Assembly: GCA_949358305.1 (NCBI GenBank)
Contig: OX442314.1
Coordinates: 27,156,001-27,220,000, forward strand
Length of the DNA stretch: 64,000 nucleotides
Reading direction: 5' to 3'
From: Strigamia acuminata
Lineage: Eukaryota
This document shows positions 5,605-41,771 of the stretch, one piece after another (position 1 is the first letter of the stretch; every line of letters begins with the position of its first letter). The notes under the pieces are model-generated. The model was not told the DNA's origin, did no database searches, and saw only the letters and a program-made list of their open reading frames with translations. A program made the position numbers and the translations under genes.

Positions 5605-5621
5605 TGGTTATGGGCCACAGG
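5605..5621 (+). other. PBS, copia-type (internal half of tRNAi-Met)
   Basis: TGGTTATGGGCCACAGG adjoins the LTR and resembles the GGTTATGGGCCCAG PBS of Drosophila copia. Confidence 0.8.
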
Positions 5622-9181: not shown

Positions 9182-9356
9182 GCGCCTACAGCTTGTGTTT
9201 GGGAACAGCTAATTAAGCCACGAAAAGGAAGTCCACAAGTGGACTATGAGTATACAATCCAAGGACAACCCAAGCCAAAACTGCGTTCTATACCGGAAAT
9301 CGAGCGCTATTGTGCACAACATAATTTGGAATTCTCCCGAGATAAAGTGGAATTTG
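9182..9356 (+). other. Methyl-CpG-binding (MBD)-like domain between integrase and RT
   Basis: WEQLIKPRKGSPQVDYEYTIQGQPKPKLRSIPEIERYC matches the MBD pattern W-x6-RK..D-x-x-Y..K-L/F-RS-x-x-E-x-x-RY. Confidence 0.8.
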
Positions 9357-10941: not shown

Positions 10942-11887
10942 CTCTTATTCAGGGGCATTTTGACTTGGTGATTCTCGGACAAACCAAAAAGCTACTTGGC
11001 ATAGAATTTGAGTATTATAAAAATAATCTCATTCAGATTCACCAACGGACTCTCATCTCTAGAACGCTTGAACGCTTTGAACACTTTGGAGTTACTCTTA
11101 GATCATCTCCAATTATCAAGGCGACAGTTTTATCGAAGAAAGATTGTCCGCAAACCCTCAAACAAGTGGAAGAAATGAGCCACCTCCCTTACCGTAGTTT
11201 ACTAGGATGTTTGGCCTCCATTGCTTCACGCACTCGACCAGACATCTCCTACGCGGTGAATGTGTTAAGCCAATTCCAGTCCAACCCAGGGCAAGCACAT
11301 TGGAGGGCCCTGCTGGATCTCTTAGGTTATGTAAAGTATAGCCGGCATTACAACTTGATCTTGGTCTGCGATAGAGAACCACAACTGAAAGCATTCGCTG
11401 ATGCGGACCATGCAAACAATCGTGACGACTGCGTCTCCATAGGCGGAACTGTAATCACTTTGGGAAATGCTGCTATCTCATGGAGAGCCTTCAAACAAAA
11501 AAGTGTGTCGCTCTCCACCATGGAATCTGAATATGTTGCTCTGGCTGAGACGGTTAAAGACTTTATCTGGCTGGAGCGTGTTCTTTGTGAAATCTTGCCA
11601 CCTGCCGATGGAATTAAACTTCATGCTGTATATTGTGACAACACTTCGTCTATAGACTTTTCGAAATCTGCTATCGAAAATCGACGTACTAAGCACATAG
11701 ACATCAAATACCACTTCGTCCGTGCATTAGTAAAAGATCATGGTCTTATTATCCGTTATGTTGATACCAATGACAATCCAGCGGATGTAATGACTAAAGC
11801 AGTGGATAAGACTACTTTACTTAAATTCTGTTCAAAGTTTATGTGTGTTTATTTTGATTAATGCTTAAGTAATATGAGGGGGCCGCT

Positions 11888-12199
11888 TGTAAACCTTATC
11901 ATATTACTAATCAGTTGATTGTATTTGTTATGTAAACAGTTCTTATTCATTGCATCTCTTAGTTTGTTTATATAACTGTTTATTATCTTGATTGTGTATT
12001 TTCCCACCAGATGGCTTTATTACACTTTTAATGTATTTTTGCCACTAGATGGCACTTCTTTCTAAAGTGATTAAAAGAGGGCTTCTTCTTTGGTTTTTCT
12101 CCATGCAAGGAGCACATGTATTCAGGTCTGGTTATTCACTTATTTAATGTTGTTTCTTTTTCTACTTTAATAGTCCAAATACACTGCAACTAGCTAACA
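11888..12199 (+). repeat. Copia 3' LTR
   Basis: Direct repeat of 5291-5604, followed by TSD CATGA. Confidence 0.97.
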
Positions 12200-21921: not shown

Positions 21922-22835
21922 GTTTTTTTCCCCAGTATTTTTCACTGCAGAAATTGCAAAGTATAAAAATTGCTACAGTATGTACTAATAGATAATTTGG
22001 CGAGATAAAGTTAAATAGAAATTGATATCAATTTAAATGTGATTAATACGGTATCCGAAAGGTGACATCTACCTTCTTTTATGACACGGCATTCGATGAT
22101 TTTAATATTCGTTAAATATTCGTTTTTCGGTGATTTGACAATAAAAGTGAATCATGGTTTCAGGAAGCATGCTTTTTTTCTCCAGTACTTTACAATGCAG
22201 TACAGAAGTACAGAAATTGCTTCCATACTTAAATAGGAACGAGTTTCAATTTGATGGCTACGGTATTCGGAAGGTAACATCCACATTTTATAACATTTTG
22301 CTATTCGATGATTTTAATATTCGGTAAATATTTGGTATTCTGTGATTCTAATTTGTAAATAATTGGTTATTAGTGATTTTGGTATTTGGTCCATCTATTA
22401 ATATTGAGTACTACCAGAGAACGCCTCCCATGCAACACGTGTAACTTTATCTTATCTATGTATATCTAATGTGTTCTCTGGCTGAGTTTGTCTACGTCGT
22501 ACCAATACTTTGGGGGATCACCACTTGAGATAGCGTTATATTCATTAGTGCAGCTACTTGTCGCTAGTTTTCGAGCGCCTGTAGTTTTTAGGTTTGAAGC
22601 AGTTTGTTATAAAGAACGAGACGCGTGGTTAGGTTTAACATGAATGACTGATTTATTTAATCCATAACACATGATATATACAAGTACAAAAGTGGTGCGC
22701 TCAACCCTGATTGGTTCGCGCCAAGTACGTCATCTGGACGTTGTGGGCGCACAGGTGAACGTTCACCTGGCGTGAAGACAAGACACTCAAATACAACACT
22801 TCCCCTGAGTGCTTGTCTCCGCACATCCCAAAAAA

Positions 22836-25800: not shown

Positions 25801-26159
25801 ATTACTTTGTGGCCTCGTTCTGTGATCTTCCCGACTGACATCAAATTCGTTCGTAAATCTCGTACCAAAAGAGTCTCTGCCAAATCCAACTTCATATTTC
25901 CGTCCCCAGTCTTGACGACGATTTTCGCGGTTCCTTTTCCGTCGATATTCGTGCTCGCCTTGCTGGCCAAATTCAGCTTCTGGTTTTTCAGGAATTCGAT
26001 CGTCGAAAATGTTGAGTCGCTCGAACACATGTGGGAACTTGCGCCGCTGTCTAAACACCAATTTCTCGGTCGGGACTTCTCGCTTATCAGTGCTGTCTCG
26101 TGTTGCTCGCAGAAAAATAATTCGTACTTGGACTTCTCGGCTCTTGATGCGCTTTCCTT
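22836..26159 (-). CDS. pol: Copia pol portion (PR-IN-RT-RNase H), open, separated from gag by the Gypsy insertion
   Basis: WCLDSGASSHM, WHKRLGH, HSDVCGP, RSDNGKEY, KARLVAKG, YVDD, YTDADW, KHIDIRHHF. The ORF-track extension 26160-26675 is Gypsy LTR sequence. Confidence 0.95.
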   Translation of the reverse strand, partial: KESASRAEKSKYELFFCEQHETALISEKSRPRNWCLDSGASSHMCSSDSTFSTIEFLKNQKLNLASKASTNIDGKGTAKIVVKTGDGNMKLDLAETLLVRDLRTNLMSVGKITERGHKVIFDNKSGKVINSNGELVLTAEKRNGLYYIVDETEDAATAAEIKVGTGSKPEKPASTKIQEWHKRLGHLNESSLKILNEKANGIDFEKDAKLPTCETCIEGKHASKKFPISMSKSEKLLELVHSDVCGPMPTKSMNGSRYFVTFTDDKSRWCKVYFLKHKSEVFEAFKSFKTFCEKETGCALKVLRSDNGKEYVNKKFDAYLQENGIKRQTSVERTPEQNGVSERMNRTLIEVARCMLLQAKLPNTYWAEAINTACHIRNKCPTRSLENEIPHQVWTGRKPNVDYFRVFGSRVFALDKKPNKGKFEPKSKECILIGYWDGSKAYCLWSKSENKVIKSRDVKFVEKSKNETNEECEESDNNNNFNDNFIDFSTDPVEDRTENSENEIESANEDESDNEDERETQHKEAEPRQNENTQIIPRRSGRTPKPYPNRNGDPPRKPYTRRNIEQIIEDEVAHIATPDDPNTADEALTGDNSQEWKEALKAEFDALIENKTWILCDRPKNRKTIGSRWVLRTKFDAKGSVERRKARLVAKGYAQQPGVDYFETYAPVARPASIRTVMAIATELGLTVHQMDVVTAYLNGDIEEEIYMDIPEMLEKITGLKFDRNKVCRLKKALYGLKQSGRQWYKKLDEKLRKFGLKPTNADPCIYHRRNGDTITLIAIYVDDIIIATNCMSNMEKLKSKLKNEFKMKDLGPIHYCLGIEFRQDGKTKSIEMSQKKYTKDVLNRFGMPECSTSSTPLDANQKLQKNKKNEDGTEEEKLDPNEYPYQNLIGSLMYLAVCTRPDIAYTVSALSQYNTCFTATHWTAAKRVLRYLKYSTGLGLKYEKTKEKLFGYTDADWGACLDDRRSYTGYCFKLANATISWEARKQRTVATSSTEAEYMALADASKEAIYLRNFLDEIGFSKKTDGPTLIYSDNQGAHKLVRNPVFHQRTKHIDIRHHFIRETCERGDVVIEFLQTEDMVADVLTKGLFKPKHEEFVAKFGLKNIA

Positions 26160-27316
26160 TGTGGTGACCTCAAATATTCCTATTTGAGTGCGCACCATAT
26201 TTCCAAATTGTCTTATAAACATATTCAACAAGCTTATATGTTTTGTTTCAATGTAAATTGAAATAAAACATACATCAATAAAATATAAAACAAGACACAA
26301 TATTACCCAAATAATATTGTGTTTTGCAGCAAGTTTTGGCCCAGCAACAGCGTCAACCAATCGCGCTGCAGCGTGCATTGCTTTGATGATGCTGCTAGGC
26401 GTGTGCCTGGGCGGAGCATCCCTTCCCCTCGCGCGTGCCCGGCTCAATTGTTGCACACGACCCGAAGGCGGCCGTGTGTGATCTTTGTGCAACTCGTCAT
26501 CTGCGCAGCTTTTCTGAGCAGATTTAGGAGTGAGCCAAACGGTTTTGGCCCACTCTTCCCGCATTCTTGATTCTGCTTCCAAACCATTCACATCTGTGTC
26601 AAACTTATGCCAACCATTGCTAAGTGTGATCTGTGATATCTGGAAGAGTTGAGATTCATTGCTGGTCCGTGCCAACTGTACGGAATAGCGCCTTTCTGCT
26701 TGAATTACTACGTGTAATTTAAGCCATTTCTGTGTGGAACTAACATCGAGTTTACTCTGTTAGTTTGAAGGCTTTGTGTTGAGTTTAACTCCACAAAGCG
26801 AACTGTGTTAAGACGGATTATTACGTCGAGCTTGCTCTGTAATAATCAAACCGCTGTGTGCAAGACGTGTTCTCGTGTTGAGCTTGCTCCGCGAGGATTT
26901 TAGTATATTTTAGCAACGTATTTTAGCGTCGAGTTTACTCCGCTAAAATCCCGCGCTCACACGACGCCATCGACGCCATCTTGGAGCCAACGGTCAACTG
27001 TGAGTGTACATTTGAAGAAGAAGCCAGATCGACCCCAAACATTTTAAATAATACCTCCTTTGTATTTTGAACGATTAAAACTATCTAATTTTTCCTTTAC
27101 TCTGTGTAAAATCATTCCCCTAGACAAACATTTGGCCACAGAGTAGAAGTCCTGTACGGCATCTCACCGACGATTGCTTATTGAATTTATATAATTTAAT
27201 AAGTAAAAACCCGGATCGCCGCACTTGGGGGCCCGTCCGGGATAGTTTTGATTGTTAAAATCCGATTTTTGCGAAAAAAATCCTTTATTTCCATTGTTCT
27301 TTTTCAATTTGACAAA

Positions 27317-30208
27317 ATGGCGACGCCAATGCAAATTGTAAAACGACAGCGAGGTCGACCAAGCACTCAGAAACGAGCAGCGACGGTTTTGCCGGCTCTC
27401 GAGCCTGAAATGCTTATGGAGAAAATTATTTCTGAAGAAATAACACCAGTTCCAGATCCGAAACAACTTAAGGATGCTGAAAATGAAGTTGCTAAAGCAT
27501 TAAGCGCTTCAAGTGCGAGTTCTAACGACCAAGAACTCCCGCCACTTCCACTGGAGGAAGTGGAAAATACGTTACGTGAAATGGAAAGTGAATCGTCTCA
27601 CGAATCACCTCCTCGCATGACCATGCTGGATGCTTTGAGAAATCAAGCACGCCAGGATGGCACCCAAATAACGGACGACATGACGGTGGAAGAGATTCAT
27701 CGCGCCATGATACGACTTCACACTGACCGAGCCGTTTCAAATTTACAATTTGAAATGGAACGAAAAGAAGCTGAGCTTCAACAACAAAAAGCGGAGGTTG
27801 AGCTCCAACACATGGAACTCAATCGACAAAATGAGGAATTTCTAGCCCAAAAAGCTAGAGAATACAGATTAAAAGGTGAAGTGGAAGATCTTTCTAAAAT
27901 GAACGTTAGAAATGAACTTTCAATTCGCTCACATCAGGAGGCGCGAAGACAGCTCGAGCTTACTAAAAGTAAGCTGGAGCAGAAAAATAAAGAACTGATT
28001 GATTTGGCAGACCACTACCAACGCAATCATAATCAACTAGTGAGATATGCTGCTGAATTAGACACACGTGCTAAAACACAGCGTACTCGCGAAAGCAAAA
28101 TAGCTAAGCGTGAAGACGAGATTTTCCACTCGCTGGATCAACCCAGTACGAGCGGACAAGTCAAGTCCAGCGGCCCTGCTAAGCGATTACAACCAGAATC
28201 GCAAAATCAAATAAATGAGAATGAAATTCTCCGAGCTGATTTGTTGCGCGCTCAAGAAGAGCTTGCAGAAATGAAAGATCATTTGCAAGCAAGAAATTAT
28301 ACTGACCAATTGGTGCAACCAGAAATGACTGCGCCAACTGTCCCTATTTTGACTCCCGAAACAATAACAATTTCTGTTGTTTCAGAGTTAAGTAGCCAAT
28401 CTGGATTATCGAGTGATGACGACCAACGTTCGCGTCGTCGCCATCGCTCAAAAAGAAAACGTCCTTCAGATTCTGAGGAACGGAGAGCTGATCGCAATCC
28501 GCTCCCTGGTAATCGAAACCCTATTTTTCACAATAGTGACCGACTGTTGGGAATGGTAGACGATCGAAACAGACGACATGAAACAGGTATTCACGTCGCC
28601 CGAACGATACCACTGGCTCAGCAGCAAGATTCGTCGAAAAGAAGTCGACGAGACACCAATCCAGCACGCGAACCGCCGGACGGACATGAAAGCCCGCCCG
28701 GTGGGGGTCAGTATAGGAGAAATCCACCAGATGGAGGAAATCCAGATGGACATGGAGATGGACCACCTGGAGGTGGACGTCGACCGCCAGACGATGACGG
28801 CGACCCACCCGACCCACCTGAAACGCCACATTTTAACACGCCTTCAAATTCACAATCTGATTCAAGGTCGGATTCTGATGTGAATGCGCAACAAGAACGC
28901 GATAATCGACATCGATCTCATCGACGTCGACATCGAGGCCATTCTTCTCGGCGTAATACACATTATTACACTGCTGAAGAAATTGATCGATTATTAGCTG
29001 ATCGTCGATCTGCTGATCGATCTGACGCTACTGCCGATAATGCTGACATTGCATTACGACAAAAAATTGCACAATACACTGCCAACAACTGGACTCACGA
29101 TCTAGTTGATGAAAGAACTATTAGATGGGATCACATCAAACCCGCTTTATTCGATGGAGAATGGGAAGCTGGATCCACTCTTTTAGATGAAGTTTTACGA
29201 ATTTCAAGGTTGAATGGCATTGCATGTCACACTGCTTTGAAAAGAGTAGTACCTAAAGCTCTTATAGACCGAGCTGAGAAATGGTTTTATTCTAAACAAT
29301 TTCAAAATTGGAACCACTTTGTAGAAGAATTCATGACTGAGTATGGAGAGTCAAGTGAAGACTTATTACAAATGTGGGATAATCTTTCTCAAAATAAAGG
29401 CGAAAGTCTTCGCTCTTATTTAAGAAGGACTGAGGATTTATTGGTCACTCTCCCTTATACGATGGGAGATGCAGCCATTGATCGTCAATTCCGACGTGGA
29501 TTGACAGATTATTCAAAAAATGTTCTACTTTCAGTACGAGCACCTTATCCGGGTGGTTTCGCTGAATTAGCCAAATTTATGCGAGCCAATCAAATAAGGA
29601 TTGACGAAAATTATAAAGCTTATCTACCAGCTGATGAAAAAGTTGCGTACGCTAAGCGACAGCAACGGAGAAAGGAATTAGCTAAAGATACACGTTTTGC
29701 TAATACCCCTCTTTTGCAACCCCCAAAACGAGGAGATTTTTTGGCAGAGACTGCTAAGGAATCTAAAAAGGGATCGGATGGGAAAAATCCACATCCAACC
29801 CCTAAAGCTCACTTAGCCGAAGTGACTGAAATGGAAACTGCTTCTGAACCAGAGAAATCTGACTCGGAACCAGAAAGTGAGGCTGCAGCTGCTTTATTAG
29901 CCCGTAATAACGCAGTAGCTCGAAAATTTGGACCAAAGATGGCGCCTAAAAACGTTACTTTTGGTTCACCGAAGACAGACGCACTCAGTAGATCGAAGTC
30001 GCCGACCCCTAAAAAAGACGAGGCCAATTGTTCAAGTTCGCCTTCGCCAAAAGTCGCGAAATCGCCCGCTACTGACCCGTGTAATATTTGTAAAAAATTG
30101 GGACATTGGGTTAAAGAATGTCCTGACAGAAAATCGAGCAAAGACAAGATTATAGAAGAGTTTGAGAAATCGATGAAATCAATCGGCGAACTTCTAAAAA
30201 ACTTGTAA
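27317..30208 (+). CDS. gag: Gag: coiled-coil and disordered N-terminus, capsid domain, CCHC knuckle
   Basis: ATG at 27317; FDGEWEAG...ALIDRAEKWF...LSQNKGESLRSY; CNICKKLGHWVKEC. Confidence 0.93.
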   Translation: MATPMQIVKRQRGRPSTQKRAATVLPALEPEMLMEKIISEEITPVPDPKQLKDAENEVAKALSASSASSNDQELPPLPLEEVENTLREMESESSHESPPRMTMLDALRNQARQDGTQITDDMTVEEIHRAMIRLHTDRAVSNLQFEMERKEAELQQQKAEVELQHMELNRQNEEFLAQKAREYRLKGEVEDLSKMNVRNELSIRSHQEARRQLELTKSKLEQKNKELIDLADHYQRNHNQLVRYAAELDTRAKTQRTRESKIAKREDEIFHSLDQPSTSGQVKSSGPAKRLQPESQNQINENEILRADLLRAQEELAEMKDHLQARNYTDQLVQPEMTAPTVPILTPETITISVVSELSSQSGLSSDDDQRSRRRHRSKRKRPSDSEERRADRNPLPGNRNPIFHNSDRLLGMVDDRNRRHETGIHVARTIPLAQQQDSSKRSRRDTNPAREPPDGHESPPGGGQYRRNPPDGGNPDGHGDGPPGGGRRPPDDDGDPPDPPETPHFNTPSNSQSDSRSDSDVNAQQERDNRHRSHRRRHRGHSSRRNTHYYTAEEIDRLLADRRSADRSDATADNADIALRQKIAQYTANNWTHDLVDERTIRWDHIKPALFDGEWEAGSTLLDEVLRISRLNGIACHTALKRVVPKALIDRAEKWFYSKQFQNWNHFVEEFMTEYGESSEDLLQMWDNLSQNKGESLRSYLRRTEDLLVTLPYTMGDAAIDRQFRRGLTDYSKNVLLSVRAPYPGGFAELAKFMRANQIRIDENYKAYLPADEKVAYAKRQQRRKELAKDTRFANTPLLQPPKRGDFLAETAKESKKGSDGKNPHPTPKAHLAEVTEMETASEPEKSDSEPESEAAAALLARNNAVARKFGPKMAPKNVTFGSPKTDALSRSKSPTPKKDEANCSSSPSPKVAKSPATDPCNICKKLGHWVKECPDRKSSKDKIIEEFEKSMKSIGELLKNL

Positions 30209-30237
30209 GCGCGCATCCAGACGGTCTAGTGGATGCG
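30196..30237 (+). promoter_or_regulatory. -1 ribosomal frameshift signal (slippery heptamer plus stem-loop)
   Basis: A_AAA_AAC at 30196-30202 in the gag frame, followed by a CGCATCCA...TGGATGCG stem. The -1 frame reads KKLVSAHPDGLVDAT into pol. Confidence 0.85.
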
Positions 30238-33200
30238 ACGCCTACCGTCTCGGAAAACGAACTAACACCATCTCAGATTTTAGATGAATTTTTAAATACA
30301 CAGATTAAATTAGAATTAGAAAATAATTTAATATTTCCAAAAATTGATGTTTCCAGTTTGAGGCTTGTGCTGCAAAATGAAAACATCACTGAAGAATTTT
30401 TTAAAGAAAAAGTTCAACAAATAAAAATTGATTGGGAATCTAAAATAAAAGATGCTGTTACTTTACTAGATGGAAAAGCTAGGCCAACACTTGAAATTGT
30501 TGAAAGGTCAGATAAAATTGATTTACCTGGTCTTGACGATTGTATTGAAAAATTAATGGCTGCAACGTTAGCCACTAATGATTTATTGGACGAATTACCA
30601 TTGAATCCGCCGATAGAAATTAAGCCACCGCGACGTTTTAGATGCAAGTACGCGGACATACCAAACAGCAATGATTTGCCGACAATTCGATTACAGACGG
30701 CAAACGGTATGATAACAGGGATGTTAGACTCTGGAGCTAATCGAAGCTTCATGGCCTACTCCGTAGTAATTTCGCTGAAACTGGAAGATGAAATTCGACC
30801 AATTGGACCGGATGTGAGAGTTACAACTGCTTCAGAAGATGTAGTCCCTGAAGGAACTCTCCTACTTTCTTTTGCGTGGACTCACGGGATGTTAAGTCAT
30901 CCATTCATAATTTTAAGAAATAAATATCCTATTGTTTTATTAGGATGTGATTTTATGAATCGACTCAACATACAACCAAATCCTAAGACAATGTCTTGGA
31001 ATTTTGTCAAGTCTTTGAAAGAAGATTTACCTTTTGTTCCTCAAGCGATTCTTGATCGTTATCAAGAGTTCCTTGATCCACCCGAAGAAATCATGAAACG
31101 CGACTTTATTAAAGCAAATCACATGAAAGCTGGTTCCGCCACTGCATGTCAAGCTAAAGTTGCCGATGAAGAAAATATAGTACAAAGACTTGTTAGCGAC
31201 GCTAATTTGTCAATGGAAAATAATTTAATGCTTGAAAGAGTATTAAAGAAACATGAAAAGATTTTATCACGCCGACCAGGTAGAACACACCTCGTTAGGC
31301 ATGAAATTAAACTGGACACTAAAGTTCCTATTAGAGTTCCGTTTAAAAGCGTAAATCCACAAAAACGTGAAATTATCCGTCAAATCTGTCAAGACATGTT
31401 GGATAATGGATACGTTGAACAAGCCACTGGAGACTATGGAATGCGAATAGTTCTAGTGATGCGTCCGGATTGTGATCCGAGACTCTGCATTGATTTTAGA
31501 CCACTCAATGCACATACATTATACGACCCTCCTCAAATGCCCAGCATTGAGGAAATCTTGCGAGAACTCGGAAGATTTGAATGGGTCACAACGATAGATT
31601 TGTCAAAAGGCTATTGGCAAATAGAGGTTCATCCGAACGACCGTGCTAAAACTGCGTTTTGGAGCCCTTTGGGTCGACTGCAATTTCGAGTCATGCCCTT
31701 TGGTCTCGTAAATGCGCCGTCAACTTTCCAAAAGTTGATAGAAAAAATTTTGGGGGACGCCTATCGAAAATTTGCATGGGCATACCTCGATGATATAATC
31801 ATTATATCTAAAAATTTTGAAGAACACATGATTCATCTGGAAGAAATTCTGAGTAAACTTGAAAATGCAAATCTTCATGTTCATCCAGAAAAATCGAAAT
31901 TTGGCAGAAAAGAATTAACTTTTCTTGGTTACAAGTTAAGTGTTCAAGGAGTTAGTGTCGACCCTAAAAAAGTCGCCGCTATTAAAGAAATGTCAGCTCC
32001 TTCAAATTTGAAAGAGTTGCAAAGATTTTTGGGAATGGTGAACTTTTTTCACAGATTACTCAAGAATCTAGCAGTCATGACAGAACCTCTACGTCCTTTA
32101 CTCAAAAAGGATGTGGAATTTATTTGGTCAGAAATTCAGCAAGAAGCTTTTGATCAAATAAAAGATGCTTTAACGAATGCAGAGACAATGGCCATGCCTG
32201 ATTTGACAGAACCATTTATTGTGCATACCGACGCTAGCAGGAAAGGACTAGGCGCCGCGCTTATGCAAATGAGAAAAATCGATGATCAAAATATCGAAGT
32301 GCCTTGTGTTTATGCCAGCAGAAGTTTGCAACCTGCTGAGATAAATTACAGCGCCACAGAATTAGAATGCCTTGCGGTAATATGGGCATTACGTAAATTT
32401 CGACATTATTTGGAATTTACCACATTTATAGTAAGGACTGACCATCAAGCATTAAAATGGTTGATGCAGTTAGACGAACCTGCCGGAAGGTTAGCACGTT
32501 GGCAAATGGAGCTGATGCGCTATTCTTTCGAAATACAATACATTAAAGGTCCACTAAATGTTTTAGCGGATGCTTTATCCAGATCACCGATTGACAAACC
32601 GGAAAATCCTGAAGATGATAAAGATAATGACGAATTATTATCTTACTGTCCATCACCTCAACGAAATTGGAAAATGGGAAAATTTCATGAACTTCCTGTC
32701 TCCACGCTGGAGGAAAAGGAAGATCACGAATTCGTCAACTACTGGACTAAAATTTATGACCCCTCTGAGGAATCAGATGACGTCATAAGAGCGCAAATTT
32801 CAAGGAAATTTCAAATTCCTTCGTCAAATGTTTTAATAAAAGCATTTGTCGCCAAAGTCGTAGAGCGTCTTGATTGTGAACCCTCCACAAGGGAAGACAT
32901 AATCAAGGCCCAAAAAGAAGATAAAGCTTGCCAATTGATGCGTAATTTTTTAAATTGTAATCAATTTCCGCCTGACGTCACAACGCGACTCCAGAGGAAA
33001 CAATATAGAAAACACGCAACCACCTTCTTAATTGAAGATGACTTATTAATGCAATTTCATCCCACAATGTCTGATGAATTGGGGGAGGATGGGAGAGCAC
33101 TCAAAGTTTTTGTACCTCAGACATTGAAGTATAAAATTATTTGGCTAATGCATGGCCACCCACTTTCTGGCCACCCAGGAATTGCAAGGACTCTTTATCG

Positions 33201-34677
33201 AGCACGCCGAATTTATACCTGGAAAGGCATGAAATCGGACATTACGAGATTCATTCGACATTGCGAGCGTTGTCAAGCTTGCAAACCTCGAACGAAAGGA
33301 CAAATTGAAGCAGCGCAAATGGGTCCTTACAGCCCATTTGACTGTCTAAGTGTTGATTTGACCGGCCCGAAACCTCGGACGCGCAAAAACAACACACATA
33401 TTTTAGTCATACTTGACGTGGCAACTCATTGGCCAGAATTATATCCAATGTGTAACCCCACTGCTGGAAAAGTAGCAAATTGCATTTATCACCTTTCCAT
33501 GAGCATGGGATTCCCTCGTAAAATTATTTCTGACAACGGCCCGCAATTTCGTGCCCAAGTCTTTAAAAAATTTTGTGAAAAGTTCAAGATGGTTCCAACA
33601 CCAACTTCAACGTATCACCCACAAGCTAACCCGGTTGAAAGGGTTAACCGTGACATCAAATATTTGGTTGCAATTTATTCATCTGTTCATTCCAAATGGG
33701 ACGAATATTTGCGTGAATTTGCATTTAGTTTGAGAACTACGGTGACGAGAGGAAGAGACTTCTCTCCCGCATTTCTTAACTTTTTTTGCGAACTCAGAGT
33801 ACCTTGGGATCCAAGAATACCTGAAGGGATTTTGGTCGTAGATCCAAAAAACCCACATTTATACGTGCAAAAGTTGGAAGCTGTTATCGCCGAATCATAT
33901 CAGCACATGATGTCACACGTGTTAGATTTGCGTAGACGAGTAAATCTTAAAAAAGAAGGTGAGAAGTTCTCCAATTTTAAATTAAACGATTTAGTTTGGA
34001 GAGATTCTCATGTTTTGTCGAGCGCTGCCCGCGGCATTGCAGCTGGCATCGCTGATAAAAGAACAGGACCTTATGTAATAACCAAAGTATTACAGGGAGG
34101 TTCGGTAGAATTGAGAAAGCTAGAGAATAACGAAATATTTCCAGCTGTCCATTCGTCTGAATTAACTCCGTATTTCCCGAGTTTCGACCAGGAAGTATGG
34201 TTAGAAGGCGAAGAAGTCGGTCAAAAGACTGAAAATATAATTAATACGTTAGATGACGATGAATTAAAGAAAATACCTGTCGATAATTCATCCAAACCAC
34301 AAATGGAGTCAGACCTCGTGAATAACGACGTTGAGCTCCGTGACAGTTTCAAAAAACTTGAAATTGCTAAAAAATTGAATAAAAAGGTGTTTTTAGAAAA
34401 GAAACAAAAAACATCTGAAATAAAAGACTCATCTGACTCAGTCTCCGATGACAATGAAGACGGCGATTTAAATACAATAAATCCCTCGCCGACAAAGAGA
34501 TATAATCTTCGGACTCGTAAACCGAGAGGAAAAAACAACATGTGTCTTCTCCCCTCGATAACCTCGAGATCCAGGGATCAGCCGTATGACGTAAGGAGCA
34601 ATTCCCCAAGCCATACTCAAACCAATCAAACAGTAAGATTGGATGACGTCACTAACCGCGACGTTACCCAAACGTAA
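30196..34677 (+). CDS. pol: Pol (PR-RT-RNase H-IN), intact
   Basis: MLDSGA, RLCIDFR, IDLSKGYWQ, MPFGL, YLDD, HTDAS, ADALSR, H..GH..C..C zinc finger, VDLTGP, SDNGPQF, GPY. Confidence 0.97.
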   Translation, partial: KKLVSAHPDGLVDATPTVSENELTPSQILDEFLNTQIKLELENNLIFPKIDVSSLRLVLQNENITEEFFKEKVQQIKIDWESKIKDAVTLLDGKARPTLEIVERSDKIDLPGLDDCIEKLMAATLATNDLLDELPLNPPIEIKPPRRFRCKYADIPNSNDLPTIRLQTANGMITGMLDSGANRSFMAYSVVISLKLEDEIRPIGPDVRVTTASEDVVPEGTLLLSFAWTHGMLSHPFIILRNKYPIVLLGCDFMNRLNIQPNPKTMSWNFVKSLKEDLPFVPQAILDRYQEFLDPPEEIMKRDFIKANHMKAGSATACQAKVADEENIVQRLVSDANLSMENNLMLERVLKKHEKILSRRPGRTHLVRHEIKLDTKVPIRVPFKSVNPQKREIIRQICQDMLDNGYVEQATGDYGMRIVLVMRPDCDPRLCIDFRPLNAHTLYDPPQMPSIEEILRELGRFEWVTTIDLSKGYWQIEVHPNDRAKTAFWSPLGRLQFRVMPFGLVNAPSTFQKLIEKILGDAYRKFAWAYLDDIIIISKNFEEHMIHLEEILSKLENANLHVHPEKSKFGRKELTFLGYKLSVQGVSVDPKKVAAIKEMSAPSNLKELQRFLGMVNFFHRLLKNLAVMTEPLRPLLKKDVEFIWSEIQQEAFDQIKDALTNAETMAMPDLTEPFIVHTDASRKGLGAALMQMRKIDDQNIEVPCVYASRSLQPAEINYSATELECLAVIWALRKFRHYLEFTTFIVRTDHQALKWLMQLDEPAGRLARWQMELMRYSFEIQYIKGPLNVLADALSRSPIDKPENPEDDKDNDELLSYCPSPQRNWKMGKFHELPVSTLEEKEDHEFVNYWTKIYDPSEESDDVIRAQISRKFQIPSSNVLIKAFVAKVVERLDCEPSTREDIIKAQKEDKACQLMRNFLNCNQFPPDVTTRLQRKQYRKHATTFLIEDDLLMQFHPTMSDELGEDGRALKVFVPQTLKYKIIWLMHGHPLSGHPGIARTLYRARRIYTWKGMKSDITRFIRHCERCQACKPRTKGQIEAAQMGPYSPFDCLSVDLTGPKPRTRKNNTHILVILDVATHWPELYPMCNPTAGKVANCIYHLSMSMGFPRKIISDNGPQFRAQVFKKFCEKFKMVPTPTSTYHPQANPVERVNRDIKYLVAIYSSVHSKWDEYLREFAFSLRTTVTRGRDFSPAFLNFFCELRVPWDPRIPEGILVVDPKNPHLYVQKLEAVIAESYQHMMSHVLDLRRRVNLKKEGEKFSNFKLNDLVWRDSHVLSSAARGIAAGIADKRTGPYVITKVLQGGSVELRKLENNEIFPAVHSSELTPYFPSFDQEVWLEGEEVGQKTENIINTLDDDELKKIPVDNSSKPQMESDLVNNDVELRDSFKKLEIAKKLNKKVFLEKKQKTSEIKDSSDSVSDDNEDGDLNTINPSPTKRYNLRTRKPRGKNNMCLLPSITSRSRDQPYDVRSNSPSHTQTNQTVRLDDVTNRDVTQT

Positions 34678-34730
34678 CTTCCGGTATTTGAAACGATCAC
34701 TTCGCGTCTGAGTTCACTTCGATCTCACAC
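34587..34730 (+). promoter_or_regulatory. Candidate internal promoter for ORF3
   Basis: TGACGTAA 34587, CCAAT 34622, ATTGG 34638, TGACGTCA 34644, ACTTCCGG 34677 and TCACTTC initiator-like motifs cluster just upstream of a splice donor at 34799. Confidence 0.45.
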
Positions 34731-34885
34731 GTGTGCTAAGTGCTCATCCCCAAAACCAAAAGAGAAACCGTTGGATAAATTCTCCCGAATCTTCAATTGT
34801 AAGTAGTTTTTTCTTTGGAATTTTCCAAAGAAAAACTAATAAATTAATTTTCGTTTTTTCTTTTCCATTTGGATTAGTCGTTCAA

Positions 34886-37698
34886 ATGGAAGGAGAGGAA
34901 CCGAAAGAAGGAAGCGAAGCCGGCGCCAACAGCCTCGAATTAGAAACAAATTCGACGCTGCTTGGTTCCGCAAACACTTCGAATGCATCCGTGGATGTCA
35001 CCGAAGAGTCCGCCGAAGCGTCCGCCGAAGCTCAAGCCGCTCTGGCCGACGCTGCTGCCCGTTTGCCAGTCACGCCGTCTCAGCCCCGACTACGAGGAGG
35101 CCTATTCGCCGATCCAAACGGCGAAACTCGCGCACAGAGACACGACCGGGTAAATAAATTAAAATAAAATTACCTTTCAGTCATGAAAAGTAATTAAAAG
35201 TGCATTTTCACTCGGAAAAAGCGAAAAGTTCGTTGGTAACGCCTTCGCAAGAAGGCGCCGCCATTTTTATCATCAGATGGCGCTGTGTCTCATTTTTGAG
35301 GCGTTGCTATGGTAACGCTCCAAACACTGAAACATAGCCGTCGGAAACAACGTTTTTCACAATTTTTCAAATATTTTGAAAAGTTTAACGAATCTAAACT
35401 GTCGAATGAAATCTTACCCGTGATTTTATTCACTGAAAATTCGGAAATAATTAATTTTAACGAAAAAATGGATTTTAATTATTTCTTCGAATATTTTACA
35501 GATCATCCAGCTTCGGGAGACGCATCTCGAACTGCACCCCGATGTTCCGACAGCTCCTGGTGTCTGGCGACACGCTTTGCCACCGGAGATCATAAAGTCT
35601 AAAGGAAGACTAACGTTTTGGGCGGCCCGACACAAGTTCTCCAAGGCCTTAAACAAGCGATGGGGAACGAAGTTTCGGATCGCCTATTTAATCGATGGAT
35701 TCGGTCATCGCGACGCCCTCGAGTGGGCAATGAAGCGCGACACCTTCGGACCACTGCGAAACGTGTTGCTCGACTTCGCCTTCACAGTGATCAATCAAGA
35801 AACGCGAGACCATCGCCGTTACTTCAACGCTCCTGCGTGGGAGCGTCGACAGATTTTGGAGGACATTTTCCAACGCTTGGACCAAACCAAGGCCGAGGTT
35901 GTACGCCTCTACCACGAATCTTTCCGTGTAACAACGGACGGAAAGAAACGTTGGGTGCCGACATGCCAATCGGAGATGCATCAGCTAGCCATGGGCGGAT
36001 GTTTCCATGCTGATTTCGTGCCAAACCCGTATCCAGAGCCTGAGCCCCGGGTACAGGTCGCTTCCACCATCCACGTGGTGCCACCGCGCTCCACGTCGAG
36101 GTCACGATCATCGAGGTCGCCCTACAGTGGCCGTCGCTCCTCCCCAACACAGTCGTCGGGGGAAGGCGCCATTGGAGGGTTACCTCCACTCCAGAAGACT
36201 CGTCATCGCTCACATCACCGACGCGAGCCGACGCCGCCAAAAAGACATTCGAAGTCCGTGTCGAGACCCACATCCCGAAGCCGACCTCGAGTGCAATCGC
36301 GCCAATCTTCCACGAGGAGTTCACTCTCGTCGCGTGAAGAAAAGTCCAACGCTTCACAGCTTAGCGCTTCCTCCTCCGGCCGGATTGACTGGTCGGACGA
36401 GATAGCAAAAGAAGATCGACGCATCGCCGCATTGCAAGCCGGTCAAGGAGACGTCAACACCTCTTTGCCGTTCGCTTGCCGCCCAGTCACCAGCGACATG
36501 CGACCAGACCCATCGGTGCCCGTGCCACACGTGACATCGGTCATCCGTTTTGAGGGATACGTCTCTCAAGAACCATTTCCCGCACAGGAGTGCGCTGATC
36601 TCTGGAGGCGATTCTCATCGTTTCCCGAGACAGCCCAAACGATGTACCTCGCGCATCTGGATGAATACCAACTCGCTCAGATCCGCGAAGGAGAGAAAGA
36701 ATGGCAATGGCTTGCGCGAGAGCTTGCGTCGTGCAAGTCCGACAAGCAACTGCAACGGACGCTGCAGAAGATGAACAGGAAATTGTCGGAGGGACTTCTT
36801 CGAATCCTGTTCCAAGGAGTCTTTCCCGACCCACAGATTGCTCTGGCGGCCGCCACTCGATTGTGGACCGTGCCGTTAGGATTGGGAGTCAGTTCGCCCC
36901 GATCCTCCAACGATGCTCGCCGAATTGACGCAACAAGCCGAGGCGACTGGCGAAACTCCGGCTGGATCCGCCATTCGACTACGGCAGGAATGGGCTGCGC
37001 TGAAGCAGCGACGCGCAGCAGAACGAGCTACCGCCCGTCCCGCTGGCGCACCACCGTCATCCGCAGCTCCACTCCACGCTGCCATCACGGCAACGTCGAG
37101 TGTTTCCCGTGCAACCGAGGCACCGAGTTGCAACATCTCGTCTCCGATGGAATGGCTCGACAGCGACGATCGCGAGTTCGTCGTGCCTGTGGCCAGCGGT
37201 GCCAGACCAAAGACGCGCACCCCGGCTTTGCGCAGATCCAGATCCTTCTCGATCTGCAAAAAGTCGCCGCCACCGCCGCCTCCTCCAAAGGATTTGCCGC
37301 CGAGAGATAGGGGATCGAATATGGCCACCCACCTCACCGCCTATCAACGTTTGCGCTCATTATACGCCTTCTGCTACATAACGAGCGCGACGAAAACGAT
37401 TCTCCAGAACAGCGAGGATTTATGCAACCGAGTCCTCGCGTGGCTGGAAAACCACATCAAGGAACAACAGCCGTGGATCCTACATCAACGCCTGGTGTTC
37501 GCTCGAATTACGCCTCAAGACCCGCAGGAGTATTTCGAGATGGGTTTTGGACGAAGGGATGGTGTGGACCGCATCAAGCAAGTGTGGCTCCACATCAACC
37601 CTGGCTTCCGGTCAGGACCAAACGCCGGCCGACCTTTGTGCACCGTCACAGAGCACAAAGATCCAAACGATCATTCAACGGACATGTTGCCGAAATAA
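34886..37698 (+). CDS. Spliced accessory gene (ORF3) of unknown function inside the Gypsy element; apparent 1-nt frameshift at ~36879
   Basis: Exon 34886-35149 (88 codons, phase 0), intron 35150-35501 (GTAAAT...TTTTACAG), exon from 35502 in frame with ORF 35577. Continues in the +1 frame from ~36880 to 37698. Upstream intron 34799-34877; AATAAA at 37753 and 37763. Confidence 0.72.
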
Positions 37699-38939
37699 TT
37701 AGGGAACACGCCCGTTCATTAAAAATAATTCCTTTTTTTATTTTTACACTGTAATAAAAAAGAATAAATATATATCCTGTTCCATTTTACTTTGAAACTT
37801 TGTGTATTTATTCTCATACTTACCTGTCTCTTTTGGAAAAGAATAGGATTCTTTCTTAAAAGGGGGGGAAGTGTGGTGACCTCAAATATTCCTATTTGAG
37901 TGCGCACCATATTTCCAAATTGTCTTATAAACATATTCAACAAGCTTATATGTTTTGTTTCAATGTAAATTGAAATAAAACATACATCAATAAAATATAA
38001 AACAAGACACAATATTACCCAAATAATATTGTGTTTTGCAGCAAGTTTTGGCCCAGCAACAGCGTCAACCAATCGCGCTGCAGCGTGCATTGCTTTGATG
38101 ATGCTGCTAGGCGTGTGCCTGGGCGGAGCATCCCTTCCCCTCGCGCGTGCCCGGCTCAATTGTTGCACACGACTCGAAGGCGGCCGTGTGTGATCTTTGT
38201 GCAACTCGTCATCTGCGCAGCTTTTCTGAGCAGATTTAGGAGTGAGCCAAACGGTTTTGGCCCACTCTTCCCGCATTCTTGATTCTGCTTCCAAACCATT
38301 CACATCTGTGTCAAACTTATGCCAACCATTGCTAAGTGTGATCTGTGATATCTGGAAGAGTTGAGATTCATTGCTGGTCCGTGCCAACTGTACGGAATAG
38401 CGCCTTTCTGCTTGAATTACTACGTGTAATTTAAGCCATTTCTGTGTGGAACTAACATCGAGTTTACTCTGTTAGTTTGAAGGCTTTGTGTTGAGTTTAA
38501 CTCCACAAAGCGAACTGTGTTAAGACGGATTATTACGTCGAGCTTGCTCCGTAATAATCAAACCGCTGTGTGCAAGACGTGTTCTCGTGTTGAGCTTGCT
38601 CCGCGAGGATTTTAGTATATTTTAGCAACGTATTTTAGCGTCGAGTTTACTCCGCTAAAATCCCGCGCTCACACGACGCCATCGACGCCATCTTGGAGCC
38701 AACGGTCAACTGTGAGTGTACATTTGAAGAAGAAGCCAGATCGACCCCAAACATTTTAAATAATACCTCCTTTGTATTTTGAACGATTAAAACTATCTAA
38801 TTTTTCCTTTACTCTGTGTAAAATCATTCCCCTAGACAAACATTTGGCCACAGAGTAGAAGTCCTGTACGGCATCTCACCGACGATTGCTTATTGAATTT
38901 ATATAATTTAATAAGTAAAAACCCGGATCGCCGCACCTT

Positions 38940-39709
38940 CTTGCCTTTGCTTCGACAATCGGCGATTTTGTGGCCAATTTTTCCGCAACCGTGGCACTTG
39001 TATTTAAAAGCTGGTTTCTCGCTTGAATTCGAATTTCGTCGCCATATTTCTTCGATTGCTTACGTTTTTGGAACGTTTTTCTGGCCATCATGGCGTCCGA
39101 CACGTCTTCTTTTCCCTTTCCACGGGCGATCGACTCGTCTTTGATCTTTCCCTCCAAAACTTCCAGCGATGGCAATTTATCTTGGGATTCTATTGCGCAT
39201 CGAAAGTTGTCGTAGGAATTTGGCAAACTCAGTAGCAGTAGAATCGTTGTGAAATCTTCGGGCATTTTAAAATCCATGTCTAGCAATTTGTCTACTAGTT
39301 CGAAGAATTCTTTTAGGTGACTCTCCACGTTTTCTCCGTCCGCCATCTTGTGTGTCGCGAGTCGTTTTAACAACGTGATTTTTCTTGCCGGTCCTTTCGA
39401 TTGGTACACACTATGCAACTTCCTCCACAATTCATTCGCGGTGCTGCAATTTTTGGCCATTCGAAGTTCAGATTGCTTTATATTTAGCAAAATGTCATTT
39501 TTGTCTGTTCGATCACTTTTCTCCCACGTCTCGATCTCCTTCATACGTTTCGCGTTGCCTTCAATGGTCTCTGGTCGCTTTGATGTACCTTCTGCGTGTG
39601 CGAGGAGGTCTCGTTGATCCAAGATTGCCTCCATCTGGATCTTCCACGTGTCGAAGTTTTCCTTTCCGAGTGCCTCGATTCGATTCGAATTTCCGCCGTG
39701 GTTTGCCAT
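38940..39709 (-). pseudogene. gag: Copia gag with a 1-nt frameshift before the zinc knuckle
   Basis: Reads MANHGG..ENFDTWKIQMEAIL..LLLSLPNSYDNF. The knuckle CHGCGKIGHKIADC lies in another frame after ~39034; that frame joins pol (..KGKK|ESASR..) once the Gypsy and one CCTT are removed. Confidence 0.9.
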
Positions 39710-41771
39710 CGTTTCTCAGTCTTGTATTTCGTAAACGGTTCGTGTTAAATGCGTTTTAACTTCCTCGATCGTTCTGGTACAAAACTTGATGTTTTTATGC
39801 ACAGTGGAATCGTGTTAGGCCCATAATCTGTAGTTTTTAGGTTCGAAGCAGTTTGTTATAAAGAACGAGACGCGTGGTTAGGTTTAACATGAATGACTGA
39901 TTTATTTAATCCATAACACATGATATATACAAGTACAAAAGTGGTGCGCTCAACCCTGATTGGTTCGCGCCAAGTACGTCATCTGGACGTCGTGGGCGCA
40001 CAGGTGAACGTTCACCTGGCGTGAAGACAAGACACTCAAATACAACAGCGCCACTTCAGTTTTCCATACTACCAGCTCTACAATTTATTGAAAAACATTT
40101 CTTAAATTAACAAAAGAAAGTAATTAAACTAAGTTTCAAAAACAGGATATATCACGATCATCAGAGAACCAGGTGTTAAAGCACAAAACTTGGGTATTTT
40201 ATCTTGCAAAGTCGAATGAAATCTAAAATTAAACCTAAAAGATTTCTTTATGTTATCGCAATTATCAGAAGCAGTCGATCGGATAAAACTCCCTGCAAGC
40301 ACAAAATGTGAACTCCCGATACTTTTTTTTCTTCTTTTGAACAGTAGACACCAGGTGGTGCCGCATTTTTATCAAATAACTTTTTTTCTAAAGTAAATTG
40401 AGAAAAAACAGGCCGAGAAATGTTTGAAAATAGTGTAAAGAAGTATTTGCATTTGATTCTTGGCATCTGCATCAGTTTGCCAGCACCATCTGATCAATTT
40501 CCTTCCGTCTCCGCTCCATTTGCAATAAAAATAAGAAAACACACGGCAAGATGGGTGTCTAGGGACACATGCCATGTTAAATGAAGCTTATCAAGACTTC
40601 GTGATGGGCGCCATGATGGGCTTTTGCCTCGTGTGTCCTTCTCCCGAGAGGATACTTCCATTTCCTGCAGCTGACCATCTAACTGCACTTAACTTTGCAT
40701 ATTAATCCCATGGCAATGTCTGATCGCAAATGATGGGATTATTATTTTTTTACGTGCTTATTAAACACCCCATATCCATTTTGCTTAAGACAAAAGGAAT
40801 AAGGAAATCTATAAAAAGAAAACGTCTCGAGTCTCACTACGATTCGCACAATTTAATTCTACTTGCAATTTCAAGTTTCTGCGCTAGATGGCACTAATGG
40901 CATTTGGAACTGGTTGGCTGGAGATTGGATGAAGCTTAAGATGTGTAATGGAGCAGTTCAAAAACTAATTTAATTCAATTTAATTCATCTGATAAAATGG
41001 ATTTTGAAAATTTGTGAAAAATGTTGATAAATCTGTGAAATTTAATTTAATTTTGAAAATTTGTGGGGAAATTTTCAAGAAATTTCTGTTGGGAAATGTC
41101 AAAATTTAAAATTTTTATTTTCTTTGCCTTTTTCAATTCATTTCTAACTGTTTGCAAGTTTGGAAGTCTGTTGTTTACTTATCCGATGTAAATACATCGA
41201 GAAATGTCATTACATTGATTTTATTCGGTCCAGTTAACGAGTTTTCGTCTTTTCGCTGACTGCCGAAGTGTTTAATGTGTTGTGCTGATCACTGTTGAAA
41301 TTTGTTTCTTCGCCAGACGTTAATATAAAGCGAGTTTGTGATGTTTGTCGTTTACCTTATCACCGTGCGCCATCTACAGGTTTCAAAGTCAATGTGATTT
41401 TTATCGCCTCTGGTTCCTCACACAGCTAAGCTAATATATACGCTGCAATTTAGTAGCAGTGAAGTATGGGATAGTGCACTGAGATTTTATATCTCAATTC
41501 ACGTCTGCTTAAAGATGAAATTCCACATCATAATCACCGCAATTAAGTTTTCGTACAAAAGAAAAGCAGAGAAAAATTTTCAGTCTGGACCAGAGGTGGG
41601 CAACAATGTAACCACAGAAGAATAGCGAATTTGAAGTGTCATTCACCACATCACACTGTCCAGCTGTCAAGCGTTTGCAGTGTGTTTGAAATGTTTGTGG
41701 TTAGTGGCGCAATCTGACGATCGATTAACTAATCAAAGATGTTTTGAAGCAAAATTTTGAACCGGTGACAC

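What the first reader, a model, noticed from the sequence alone, without database searches (positions are those of the whole stretch)
34799..37770. Young Gypsy element carries an intron-containing, non-env third gene
Seen in sequence: about 3.2 kb lies between the pol stop (34677) and the PPT. It contains an AT-rich 5'-UTR intron (34799-34877, GTAAGT..CTAAT..TAG), an ATG exon of 88 codons, and a second AT-rich intron (35150-35501) whose removal joins the next ORF exactly in frame. The exons are visibly GC-richer than pol, and two AATAAA follow the stop, before the LTR. The ~820-aa reconstructed product has no signal peptide, clear TM helix or env-like layout; three apparently folded blocks are separated by RS/P-rich disorder. 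Established knowledge: the usual third ORF of animal Gypsy elements is env, spliced from the LTR leader, and sense introns are normally lost on reverse transcription. Inference: this is a self-contained accessory transcription unit (for example anti-silencing, RNA-handling or a captured host gene), implying selective packaging of unspliced genomic RNA. I do not recognise the protein.
Basis: partly seen in the sequence, partly recalled or inferred. Interest (0 to 1): 0.88.

Follow-up and report, generated by a model that had tools for sequence, protein, structure and literature searches.

The report
Intron-bearing orphan gene in Gypsy retrotransposon
A young, many-copy Gypsy jumping gene carries, after its polymerase gene, a large non-envelope gene with no known relatives whose reading frame is conserved among copies and which is predicted to hold two ordinary introns; its product likely helps the element's own unspliced RNA get processed and exported, which is untested.

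Summary
The third gene is real. The element (26160-38935; 1064-nt LTRs, 2 mismatches) has both predicted introns at the stated coordinates. Their acceptors rank 1 and 2 of 732 AGs, and the GC steps fall within 1-11 nt of the four sites. Copies show purifying selection: 19 of 29 listed coding differences are synonymous (expected 25-30%), and 11 of 12 common indels are non-coding. Other copies lack that shift, so the ~830-aa product belongs to the family, not to this copy. The protein has no transmembrane helix and no homolog or fold match in any search. It has an Arg/Ser tract (40 of 80 residues). A distant Gypsy (L044) shows the same layout with an unrelated protein. Splicing, the promoter and function were not tested by RNA. 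Best guess: a nuclear RNA regulator working like CERV of Cer1 (about 0.38). Non-env third genes, spliced accessory genes and internal promoters are each known. This scan noted similar genes in other genomes. Verdict: new variant of a known kind.

The parts
26156..26159 (+). Left target-site duplication (4 nt)
   Evidence: Same 4 nt follow the 3' LTR at 38936-38939; the empty-site joint 26155/38936 is seen in two runs
26160..27223 (+). 5' LTR, 1064 nt, TG...CA
   Evidence: 2 mismatches to the 3' LTR
27226..27243 (+). Primer-binding site, tRNA-Pro-like (assignment recalled, not tested)
   Evidence: Sequence directly after the LTR; a near-identical site sits upstream of gag in the window's other Gypsy element
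27317..30208 (+). gag, 963 aa, with coiled, Arg/Ser-rich, capsid and CCHC parts; a strong phase-1 donor at 27969
   Evidence: PF03732 E 2.9e-9, zf-CCHC; donor rank and phase
30166..34677 (+). pol frame, PR-RT-RH-IN, overlapping the gag end
   Evidence: Pfam RVT_1, RT_RNaseH, Integrase_H2C2, rve; RT is a long branch, at most 45% identical to any row
34678..34798 (+). Stretch upstream of intron 1: predicted untranslated first exon and/or promoter; no ATG; pol frame stays open for 40 codons to the donor
   Evidence: start site not known
34799..34877 (+). Predicted intron 1, 79 nt
   Evidence: Donor rank 2 of 568, acceptor rank 2 of 732, GC 0.23; 2 common indels fall in it
34878..35149 (+). Exon with ATG at 34886; 88 acidic, Ala-rich codons
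   Evidence: 3 of 4 listed copy differences synonymous
35150..35501 (+). Predicted intron 2, 352 nt, phase 0
   Evidence: Donor rank 4 of 568, acceptor rank 1 of 732; GC change points 1 and 5 nt away; stops in all frames
35259..35316 (.). Motif cluster inside intron 2: YY1/Pho-like, CTCF-like and an exact RFX X-box-like palindrome (motif identities recalled); possible enhancer
   Evidence: only X-box-like site in the window; found in 120, 19 and 1 of 20000 intron shuffles; 0 of 7 listed intron substitutions lie in 35159-35360
35502..36878 (+). Second coding exon, first part: helical block, Arg/Ser tract (about 36090-36347), helical block
   Evidence: 8 of 12 listed differences synonymous; low-confidence model, mean pLDDT 45; 40 of 80 residues R or S, 0 of 1000 shuffles reach it
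36879..36880 (+). Frameshift in this copy: a short deletion relative to other copies
   Evidence: all 4 listed pieces that span it, and one long diverged contig, differ from the window by the same length
36880..37698 (+). Second coding exon, last part: Ala/Pro-rich linker and a ~125-aa alpha/beta domain, stop at 37696-37698
   Evidence: 8 of 13 listed differences synonymous; model pLDDT 56, pTM 0.51
37753..37768 (+). Two AATAAA upstream of the PPT (predicted poly(A) signals); two more in the LTR at 37974 and 37989
   Evidence: use not tested
37858..37871 (+). Polypurine tract
37872..38935 (+). 3' LTR
22579..40047 (-). Copia element into which the Gypsy element is inserted (LTRs 22579-22798 and 39828-40047)
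   Evidence: Repeat D14; Copia gag and pol Pfam hits on both sides

Best explanation
This is a conserved non-envelope accessory gene of a many-copy Gypsy family, predicted to be expressed from a fully spliced subgenomic mRNA, whose Arg/Ser-rich product likely acts in the nucleus on the element's own RNA, as CERV does for Cer1. Shown: the reading frame is under purifying selection among copies; the protein lacks membrane features; other copies carry the introns in their DNA; this copy is frameshifted near 36880. Inferred: both introns are spliced from a short mRNA that starts near the end of pol (or is reached by a long splice from the 5' end) and ends at the AATAAA pair before the PPT. Such an mRNA lacks the PPT and 3' LTR, so it would not be copied back into DNA. 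Inferred, weakest step: the protein binds full-length RNA and lets it escape the same splice sites and the premature poly(A) signals and leave the nucleus unspliced. That would explain why an element that replicates through RNA keeps near-perfect introns.
For: Selection: 19 of 29 listed coding differences synonymous (expected 0.25-0.30; pN/pS 0.17-0.23; p 4e-6 to 9e-5) against 6 and 2 of 29 in the other two frames; gag/pol 12 of 15. 20 of 29 are at third positions. 11 of 12 common indels are non-coding and the twelfth is the window's own break. 15 of 20 exon-2 contig pieces at 79-98% identity have no net length change, 4 span the break and 1 is off by 4. Splice sites: ranks and GC steps. Introns in other copies: deep contigs cross both acceptors unspliced (records 17 and 18). 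Protein: Arg/Ser tract beyond 1000 shuffles, a basic NLS-like motif inside it, no hydrophobic helix. Logic: full-length RNA must pass two AATAAA before the PPT and keep two strong introns, so it needs some bypass. Precedent: CERV is made from a spliced 5-exon mRNA, has three folded domains with flexible linkers, and is required for export of unspliced Cer1 RNA (PMC10309623, abstract and sections 6, 9, 15). Same gene layout in an unrelated Gypsy, L044: 28-codon acidic ATG exon, 454-nt AT-rich GT..AG intron in phase 0, GC-rich 322-codon exon with Arg/Ser and poly-Pro tracts.
Against: No spliced read, start site or poly(A) site was seen, so splicing is a prediction. No sequence or fold link to CERV, Rev or any RNA-binding family. 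NES-like and NLS-like patterns are no more frequent than in shuffles (4 against 4.0; 2 against 1.3). Gag also has an Arg/Ser-rich stretch (28 of 80), so such tracts may be a habit of these elements. Unspliced RNA can be exported by RNA structure alone, or kept as a separate pool, without an extra protein (PMC10309623 section 15; PMC3735527 abstract). The variant table shows only the best-supported 40 of 137 rows, and copies share ancestry. 14 of 17 homopolymer runs lie in the non-coding part, which inflates the indel contrast. One diverged piece has a non-triplet length change. The splice score is ad hoc and not trained on this host.
Confidence: 0.38

Rival explanations
1. Same gene structure, but the protein is a transcriptional transactivator or anti-silencing factor that acts on the element's DNA or chromatin, or on host small-RNA defence, and not on RNA export.
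For: Orphan, fast-evolving, modular, probably nuclear, with an acidic N-terminus (16 D/E in 88 aa). A motif-rich conserved core in intron 2 suggests regulated expression. Transposon-encoded anti-silencing proteins exist for plant DNA transposons (VANC; PMC12859917, passages), and antisense extra ORFs of plant LTR elements are nuclear in some cases (PMC7264820, passages).
Against: No DNA-binding or chromatin domain found. It leaves unexplained how full-length RNA avoids the introns and the early AATAAA.
Confidence: 0.25
2. The gene is not self-contained: it is reached by a long splice from the 5' end, as env is, possibly fused to the first 217 codons of Gag (or to Pol), and works as a Gag-associated or particle component.
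For: The acceptor at 34877 needs a phase-1 donor, and the three best donors (27969 in gag, 33959 in pol, 34799) are all phase 1. The pol frame is open for 40 codons from its stop to the local donor. A listed copy difference at 27974 turns the gag donor into GTAAGT. CERV shares exons with gag. Bdelloid ORF3s are said to be expressed from spliced messages (PMC5408684, passage).
Against: Each phase match has a one-in-three chance and was noted after the fact. A near-perfect local donor sits at the GC step 79 nt upstream of the acceptor, and an ATG follows 8 nt after it. The three listed differences in 34678-34798 would all change residues in the pol frame (my reading). This rival changes the 5' end of the mRNA and can hold together with the best explanation's function.
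Confidence: 0.17
3. There is no splicing: 'intron 2' is a promoter for a shorter downstream ORF and the 88-codon ORF is separate.
For: The middle of intron 2 is GC-richer and holds promoter-type motifs. No junction was observed.
Against: The stretch ends in the best acceptor of the whole element and begins with a top-4 donor at the GC steps, in phase. Without splicing, four out-of-frame ATGs (35468-35695) precede the first usable one at 35730. L044 repeats the layout.
Confidence: 0.08
4. A captured host gene carried as a passenger, with introns and GC-rich codons left from the host.
For: GC3 is 0.53-0.61 against 0.31-0.33 in gag and pol; the gene has a host-like exon/intron/poly(A) layout.
Against: Selection among element copies rules out a neutral passenger. 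No host-like homolog among 1.84 billion representatives for the 459-aa part. A host origin long ago remains open, since the host genome is not held.
Confidence: 0.05
5. A highly divergent envelope or fusion protein.
For: Position between pol and the PPT; related Gypsy elements can carry a fusion glycoprotein there (L029, PF24664, E 4e-185).
Against: No hydrophobic 19-mer above 1.09, no R-x-K/R-R site, 10 Cys, acidic hydrophilic N-terminus; no Pfam hit.
Confidence: 0.02

Closest known systems
CERV of Cer1 (C. elegans Gypsy/Ty3 element; PMC10309623, abstract and sections 6, 9, 15 read)
   Same: Orphan accessory protein of a Gypsy element made from a spliced multi-exon mRNA; three predicted folded domains with flexible linkers; the element keeps ordinary splice signals in its genomic RNA.
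   Different: CERV exons 1-3 share the gag frame, whereas this gene lies wholly 3' of pol with short local introns and its own AATAAA pair. No similarity to CERV surfaced in any search (no direct pairwise comparison was run). About 830 aa against 517. Function is shown for CERV and only inferred here.
Non-env ORF3s of bdelloid rotifer LTR retrotransposons (DEDDy exonuclease, GDSL esterase, coiled-coil, small TM; PMC5408684, passages read)
   Same: Extra non-envelope ORF between pol and the 3' LTR, family-specific, described as separate units expressed from spliced messages.
   Different: Those are recognisable enzymes or short proteins; the word 'intron' does not occur in that paper's main text. 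This protein is large, orphan and split by a predicted intron within its coding sequence.
Tor3b/4b elements of Oikopleura (PMC4402516, passages read)
   Same: Third gene transcribed from an internal promoter in or after pol, which is the arrangement predicted here.
   Different: The Tor gene is a membrane glycoprotein and those transcripts showed no splicing; here the promoter is not shown.
Additional sense and antisense ORFs of plant LTR retrotransposons (review PMC7264820, passages read)
   Same: Extra ORFs of unknown function between pol and the 3' LTR; the antisense Grande gene has its own promoter; retroviral-accessory-like roles are proposed.
   Different: Plant lineages; the sense ORFs often have transmembrane parts; internal introns are not discussed in that text.
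Insect errantivirus env and mdg1-type sORF2 (PMC13524379, PMC13486581, passages read)
   Same: Position in a Gypsy element.
   Different: Both are membrane proteins; this one has no membrane segment.

Membership tests
Ty3/Gypsy LTR retrotransposon | Two LTRs with TG..CA ends, target-site duplication, PBS and PPT | tested here: met
Ty3/Gypsy LTR retrotransposon | gag, then pol in the order PR-RT-RH-IN | tested here: met
Named Gypsy lineage (mdg3, Osvaldo or other) | RT groups with named reference elements | tested here: inconclusive
   long branch, no starred clade holds it; no named reference elements were in the tree
Envelope/fusion glycoprotein (errantivirus env) | Signal peptide and transmembrane anchor | tested here: not met
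   Best 19-residue hydropathy 0.52, 1.09 and 0.58 in the three coding pieces
Envelope/fusion glycoprotein (errantivirus env) | Furin-type cleavage site and match to a fusogen family | tested here: not met
   No R-x-K/R-R; no Pfam hit at E 0.1, while the same scan finds PF24664 in L029
FAST-like sORF2 | Small protein with one membrane segment | tested here: not met
CERV-type RNA-export factor | Made from a spliced mRNA | tested here: inconclusive
   Splice signals strong; junctions not observed
CERV-type RNA-export factor | Shares exons with gag | tested here: inconclusive
   An in-phase gag donor exists at 27969; use unknown
CERV-type RNA-export factor | Sequence or fold likeness (H, M with Cys loop, G-protein-like domain) | tested here: inconclusive
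   No hit in sequence searches; low-confidence models give only generic matches; no direct comparison with CERV
CERV-type RNA-export factor | Nuclear, and required for export of unspliced genomic RNA | not testable with these tools
   Needs localisation and knock-down
Enzymatic ORF3 (DEDDy exonuclease, GDSL esterase) | Recognisable nuclease or esterase domain | tested here: not met
   No Pfam hit, while PF01612 is found downstream of pol in L006 and L028
Internal-promoter third gene (Tor-type) | Capped start site in or after pol | not testable with these tools
   Needs 5' RACE or CAGE

The most novel reading that the evidence does not exclude
Some animal Gypsy elements carry complete host-style genes 3' of pol, with their own promoter, short spliceosomal introns, an intronic enhancer and a poly(A) site. 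Unrelated orphan proteins have been recruited into this layout repeatedly (this family and L044), and they serve as Rev-like switches that keep the genomic RNA unspliced and read-through. Such genes would be missed by single-ORF annotation, and 'complex' retrotransposons would be more common than thought.
Probability: 0.25. Interest if true: 0.75.

Novelty: new variant of a known kind. Interest (0 to 1): 0.5.

Why it matters
An element that replicates through RNA should lose strong sense introns that lie outside any packaging signal, and should be cut short by poly(A) signals ahead of its PPT. This family keeps both across many copies while selection preserves a large orphan protein. It therefore offers a direct test of how LTR retrotransposons separate mRNA from genomic RNA, a step for which CERV is the one accessory-protein case I found in the papers read. 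It also shows that third genes in Gypsy elements can be split by introns and so escape ORF-based annotation.

Tried and rejected
No whole genome is held for this window, so copies could be compared only through contigs of three runs from two studies. No RNA holder was listed; this blank says nothing about expression. None of the 15 joints listed matches either predicted intron, but contigs drop rare variants, so this does not show that intron-less copies are absent. One GT..AG joint (34711/35019, one contig, gap content unknown) does not fit the predicted sites and was not pursued. Homolog searches were all empty: Pfam and NCBIfam (one E 0.069 low-complexity row); 459-aa part against the word index, 252-804 aa only, and against 1.84 billion representatives; C-terminal 138 aa against 477-2000-aa proteins only, weak evidence (near and shorter lengths not searched for this part); ESM Atlas; PDB sequences; metagenome and viral contigs; tblastn and phmmer against 79 loci and 12 downstream ORFs. 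Folds: single-sequence models are weak (pLDDT 45 and 56). Foldseek found nothing at E 0.001. VIA-align gave only generic matches: best Z 6.4 (rmsd 3.6, 84 aligned) for the C-terminal domain, with several HPF/RaiA-type rows at Z 4-4.8, and Z 8.0 (rmsd 3.1, 82 aligned) for a three-helix bundle. The first helical block was barely tested, and the protein was never folded whole. The idea that the gene is a gag duplicate got no tblastn hit. A possible intron in the extra ORF of L029 was dropped: 44 nt, GC 0.41, inside an open frame. A possible intron in the LTR (27000-27123) is weak: ranks 10 and 25, change points 37 and 60 nt off. Seven paper searches listed no report of a Gypsy third gene with short internal introns. 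The library lacks most subscription papers, and I opened no supplements.
Full report
Setting. The finding lies in a Ty3/Gypsy element at 26160-38935 (+). It has 1064-nt LTRs with 2 mismatches, a 4-nt target duplication, a PBS and a PPT, gag at 27317-30208 and pol at 30166-34677 in the order PR-RT-RH-IN. It is inserted in a Copia element on the minus strand, and the empty site is seen in two runs. Its RT is at most 45% identical to any of 108 other rows and sits on a long branch with no supported clade; the named hits are from arthropods, but the host is not known. Contigs of three runs from two studies cover the whole element. Main contigs in run X3 have depth 1500-3000 against 20-50 for one-off rearrangements, which suggests tens to about a hundred copies (inference; the tool warns that depth is no copy number).

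The observation. Both predicted introns, the 88-codon ATG exon, the GC contrast and the two AATAAA are at the stated coordinates. By an ad hoc score built from recalled consensus, the acceptors at 35501 and 34877 rank 1 and 2 of 732 AG, and the donors at 34799 and 35150 rank 2 and 4 of 568 GT on the element's + strand. The best GC change points lie 11, 10, 1 and 5 nt from the four sites. Intron 2 has stops in all frames and is in phase 0 with the next ORF. This copy is frameshifted near 36880 and would give 690 aa as it stands. All 4 listed contig pieces that span the spot, at 86-97% identity, and one long diverged contig differ from the window there by the same length, consistent with one continuous frame. 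The break is therefore a short deletion in this copy or its sub-lineage, and the family product would be about 830 aa.

Is it a gene? One search lists the 40 best-supported of 137 substitutions among copies; 29 are coding. Of these 19 are synonymous (exon 1: 3 of 4; first part of exon 2: 8 of 12; last part: 8 of 13), against an expected share of 0.25-0.30 (pN/pS 0.17-0.23; p 4e-6 to 9e-5). In the two other frames 6 and 2 of 29 would be synonymous; gag and pol give 12 of 15. Of 12 common indels, 11 are non-coding and one is the window's break; 14 of 17 homopolymer runs are also non-coding, so that contrast is inflated. Of 24 pieces shown (of 3478), I used the 20 in exon 2 and left out 4 that lie elsewhere: 15 have no net length change at 79-98% identity, 4 span the break, 1 is off by 4. 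Some pieces in X1 and X2 are the same copies. The gene is real and selected. Deep contigs cross both acceptors unspliced (records 17 and 18), so the introns belong to the family and not to this copy alone.

The protein. It has an acidic N-terminal exon, a helical block, an Arg/Ser tract (40 of 80 residues; 0 of 1000 shuffles reach it), a second helical block, an Ala/Pro linker and a ~125-aa alpha/beta domain. No 19-residue window exceeds hydropathy 1.09 and there is no furin-type site, so it is not env or a FAST-like protein. No family, homolog or convincing fold was found; the models are low-confidence and the pieces were folded separately. NES- and NLS-like patterns are not enriched. GC3 is 0.53-0.61 against 0.31-0.33 in gag and pol, which points to a different origin or a different regime of RNA handling (inference).

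Regulatory hints. The middle of intron 2 holds YY1/Pho-like, CTCF-like and exact RFX X-box-like motifs within 60 nt (identities recalled). They occur in 120, 19 and 1 of 20000 shuffles, chosen after looking. None of the 7 listed intron substitutions lies in 35159-35360, though 97 rows are hidden. An intronic enhancer would give selection a reason to keep this intron. The 5' end of the mRNA is open: the first acceptor needs a phase-1 donor, and the three best donors, in gag (27969), in pol (33959) and the local one, are all phase 1.

A second case. Among 79 loci fetched with a pol alignment, 30 had 1.5 kb or more after the integrase match and I looked at 19 more closely; several of these proved to be Copia-order or nested elements. 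L044 shows the same layout with an unrelated protein: 28-codon acidic ATG exon, 454-nt intron at GC 0.24 with GT..AG in phase 0, GC step 1 nt from the acceptor, and a 322-codon exon at GC 0.60 against pol 0.35. Others carry a fusogen plus a fourth ORF (L029) or a 3'-5' exonuclease (L006, L028). None is homologous to the window's gene.

Mechanism. Shown: a selected, non-membrane ORF with near-ideal splice signals kept in the DNA of many copies. Inferred: a short, fully spliced mRNA ending at the AATAAA pair before the PPT, which could not be reverse-transcribed into a full element. Full-length RNA must keep the introns and read through those signals. I think it most likely (0.38) that the Arg/Ser-rich product provides that bypass, as CERV does for Cer1. 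Rivals are a transactivator or anti-silencing factor (0.25), a Gag- or Pol-fused product of a long splice (0.17, compatible with the same function), no splicing (0.08), a passenger host gene (0.05) and env (0.02). My confidence that the gene is real is about 0.95, and that intron 2 is spliced about 0.85.

Comparison with what is known. CERV: PMC10309623 (abstract and sections 6, 9, 15). Non-env ORF3s: PMC5408684 (passages), PMC6431247 (passages). Internal promoter: PMC4402516 (passages). Plant additional ORFs: PMC7264820 (passages). Separate RNA pools in BARE: PMC3735527 (abstract and outline). env and sORF2: PMC13524379, PMC13486581 (passages). VANC: PMC12859917 (passages). It works like these accessory genes but is a member of none of their protein families by the tests run. 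Seven searches listed no Gypsy third gene with short internal introns; subscription papers and supplements were not seen. The scan's earlier notes describe similar non-env and spliced third genes in other genomes; they are unchecked and are not counted as support.

Verdict. Observation partly confirmed, interpretation partly supported. New variant of a known kind; interest 0.5.

Noticed in passing
L044:3420-4926: A distant Gypsy has the same layout 3' of pol: 28-codon acidic ATG exon, 454-nt AT-rich GT..AG intron in phase 0, GC-rich 322-codon exon with Cys/His, Arg/Ser and poly-Pro parts; no Pfam hit and no similarity to the window's protein.
   Followed up: partly
L029:6863-10470: A Gypsy with a viral fusion glycoprotein (PF24664) followed by a TATA-bearing AT-rich spacer and a fourth, GC-rich, Cys- and Pro/Ala-rich ORF with no Pfam hit.
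   Followed up: partly
L006:7970-8722 and L028:2490-3893: 3'-5' exonuclease (PF01612) ORFs downstream of pol, recalling the DEDDy ORF3s of bdelloid elements.
   Followed up: no
window 26973, 38685 (+) and 3626 (-): The two divergent Gypsy elements of the window (gag 33% identical over 180 aa) share an exact 13-nt YY1-like motif upstream of the PBS and a near-identical PBS; possibly a conserved LTR promoter element.
   Followed up: partly
window 34751 and 34782: Two common insertions (2 nt and 1 nt) at equal depth in run X1 sum to one codon in the stretch after the pol stop, where the pol frame stays open to the donor; may be chance.
   Followed up: no
window 32835-35007: A joint at several times the depth of one-off joints in run X1 skips the integrase and the first coding exon: possibly a non-autonomous derivative.
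   Followed up: no
window 27000-27123: GTGAGT...CTAAT...TAG in the 3' part of the LTR, a weak intron candidate just after the YY1-like motif.
   Followed up: partly
window 5346-12199: A second Copia element (259-nt LTRs, 99% alike) with stops in its ORF and an inverted-repeat, 11-nt tandem-repeat insertion at about 10125-10950 in RT.
   Followed up: no
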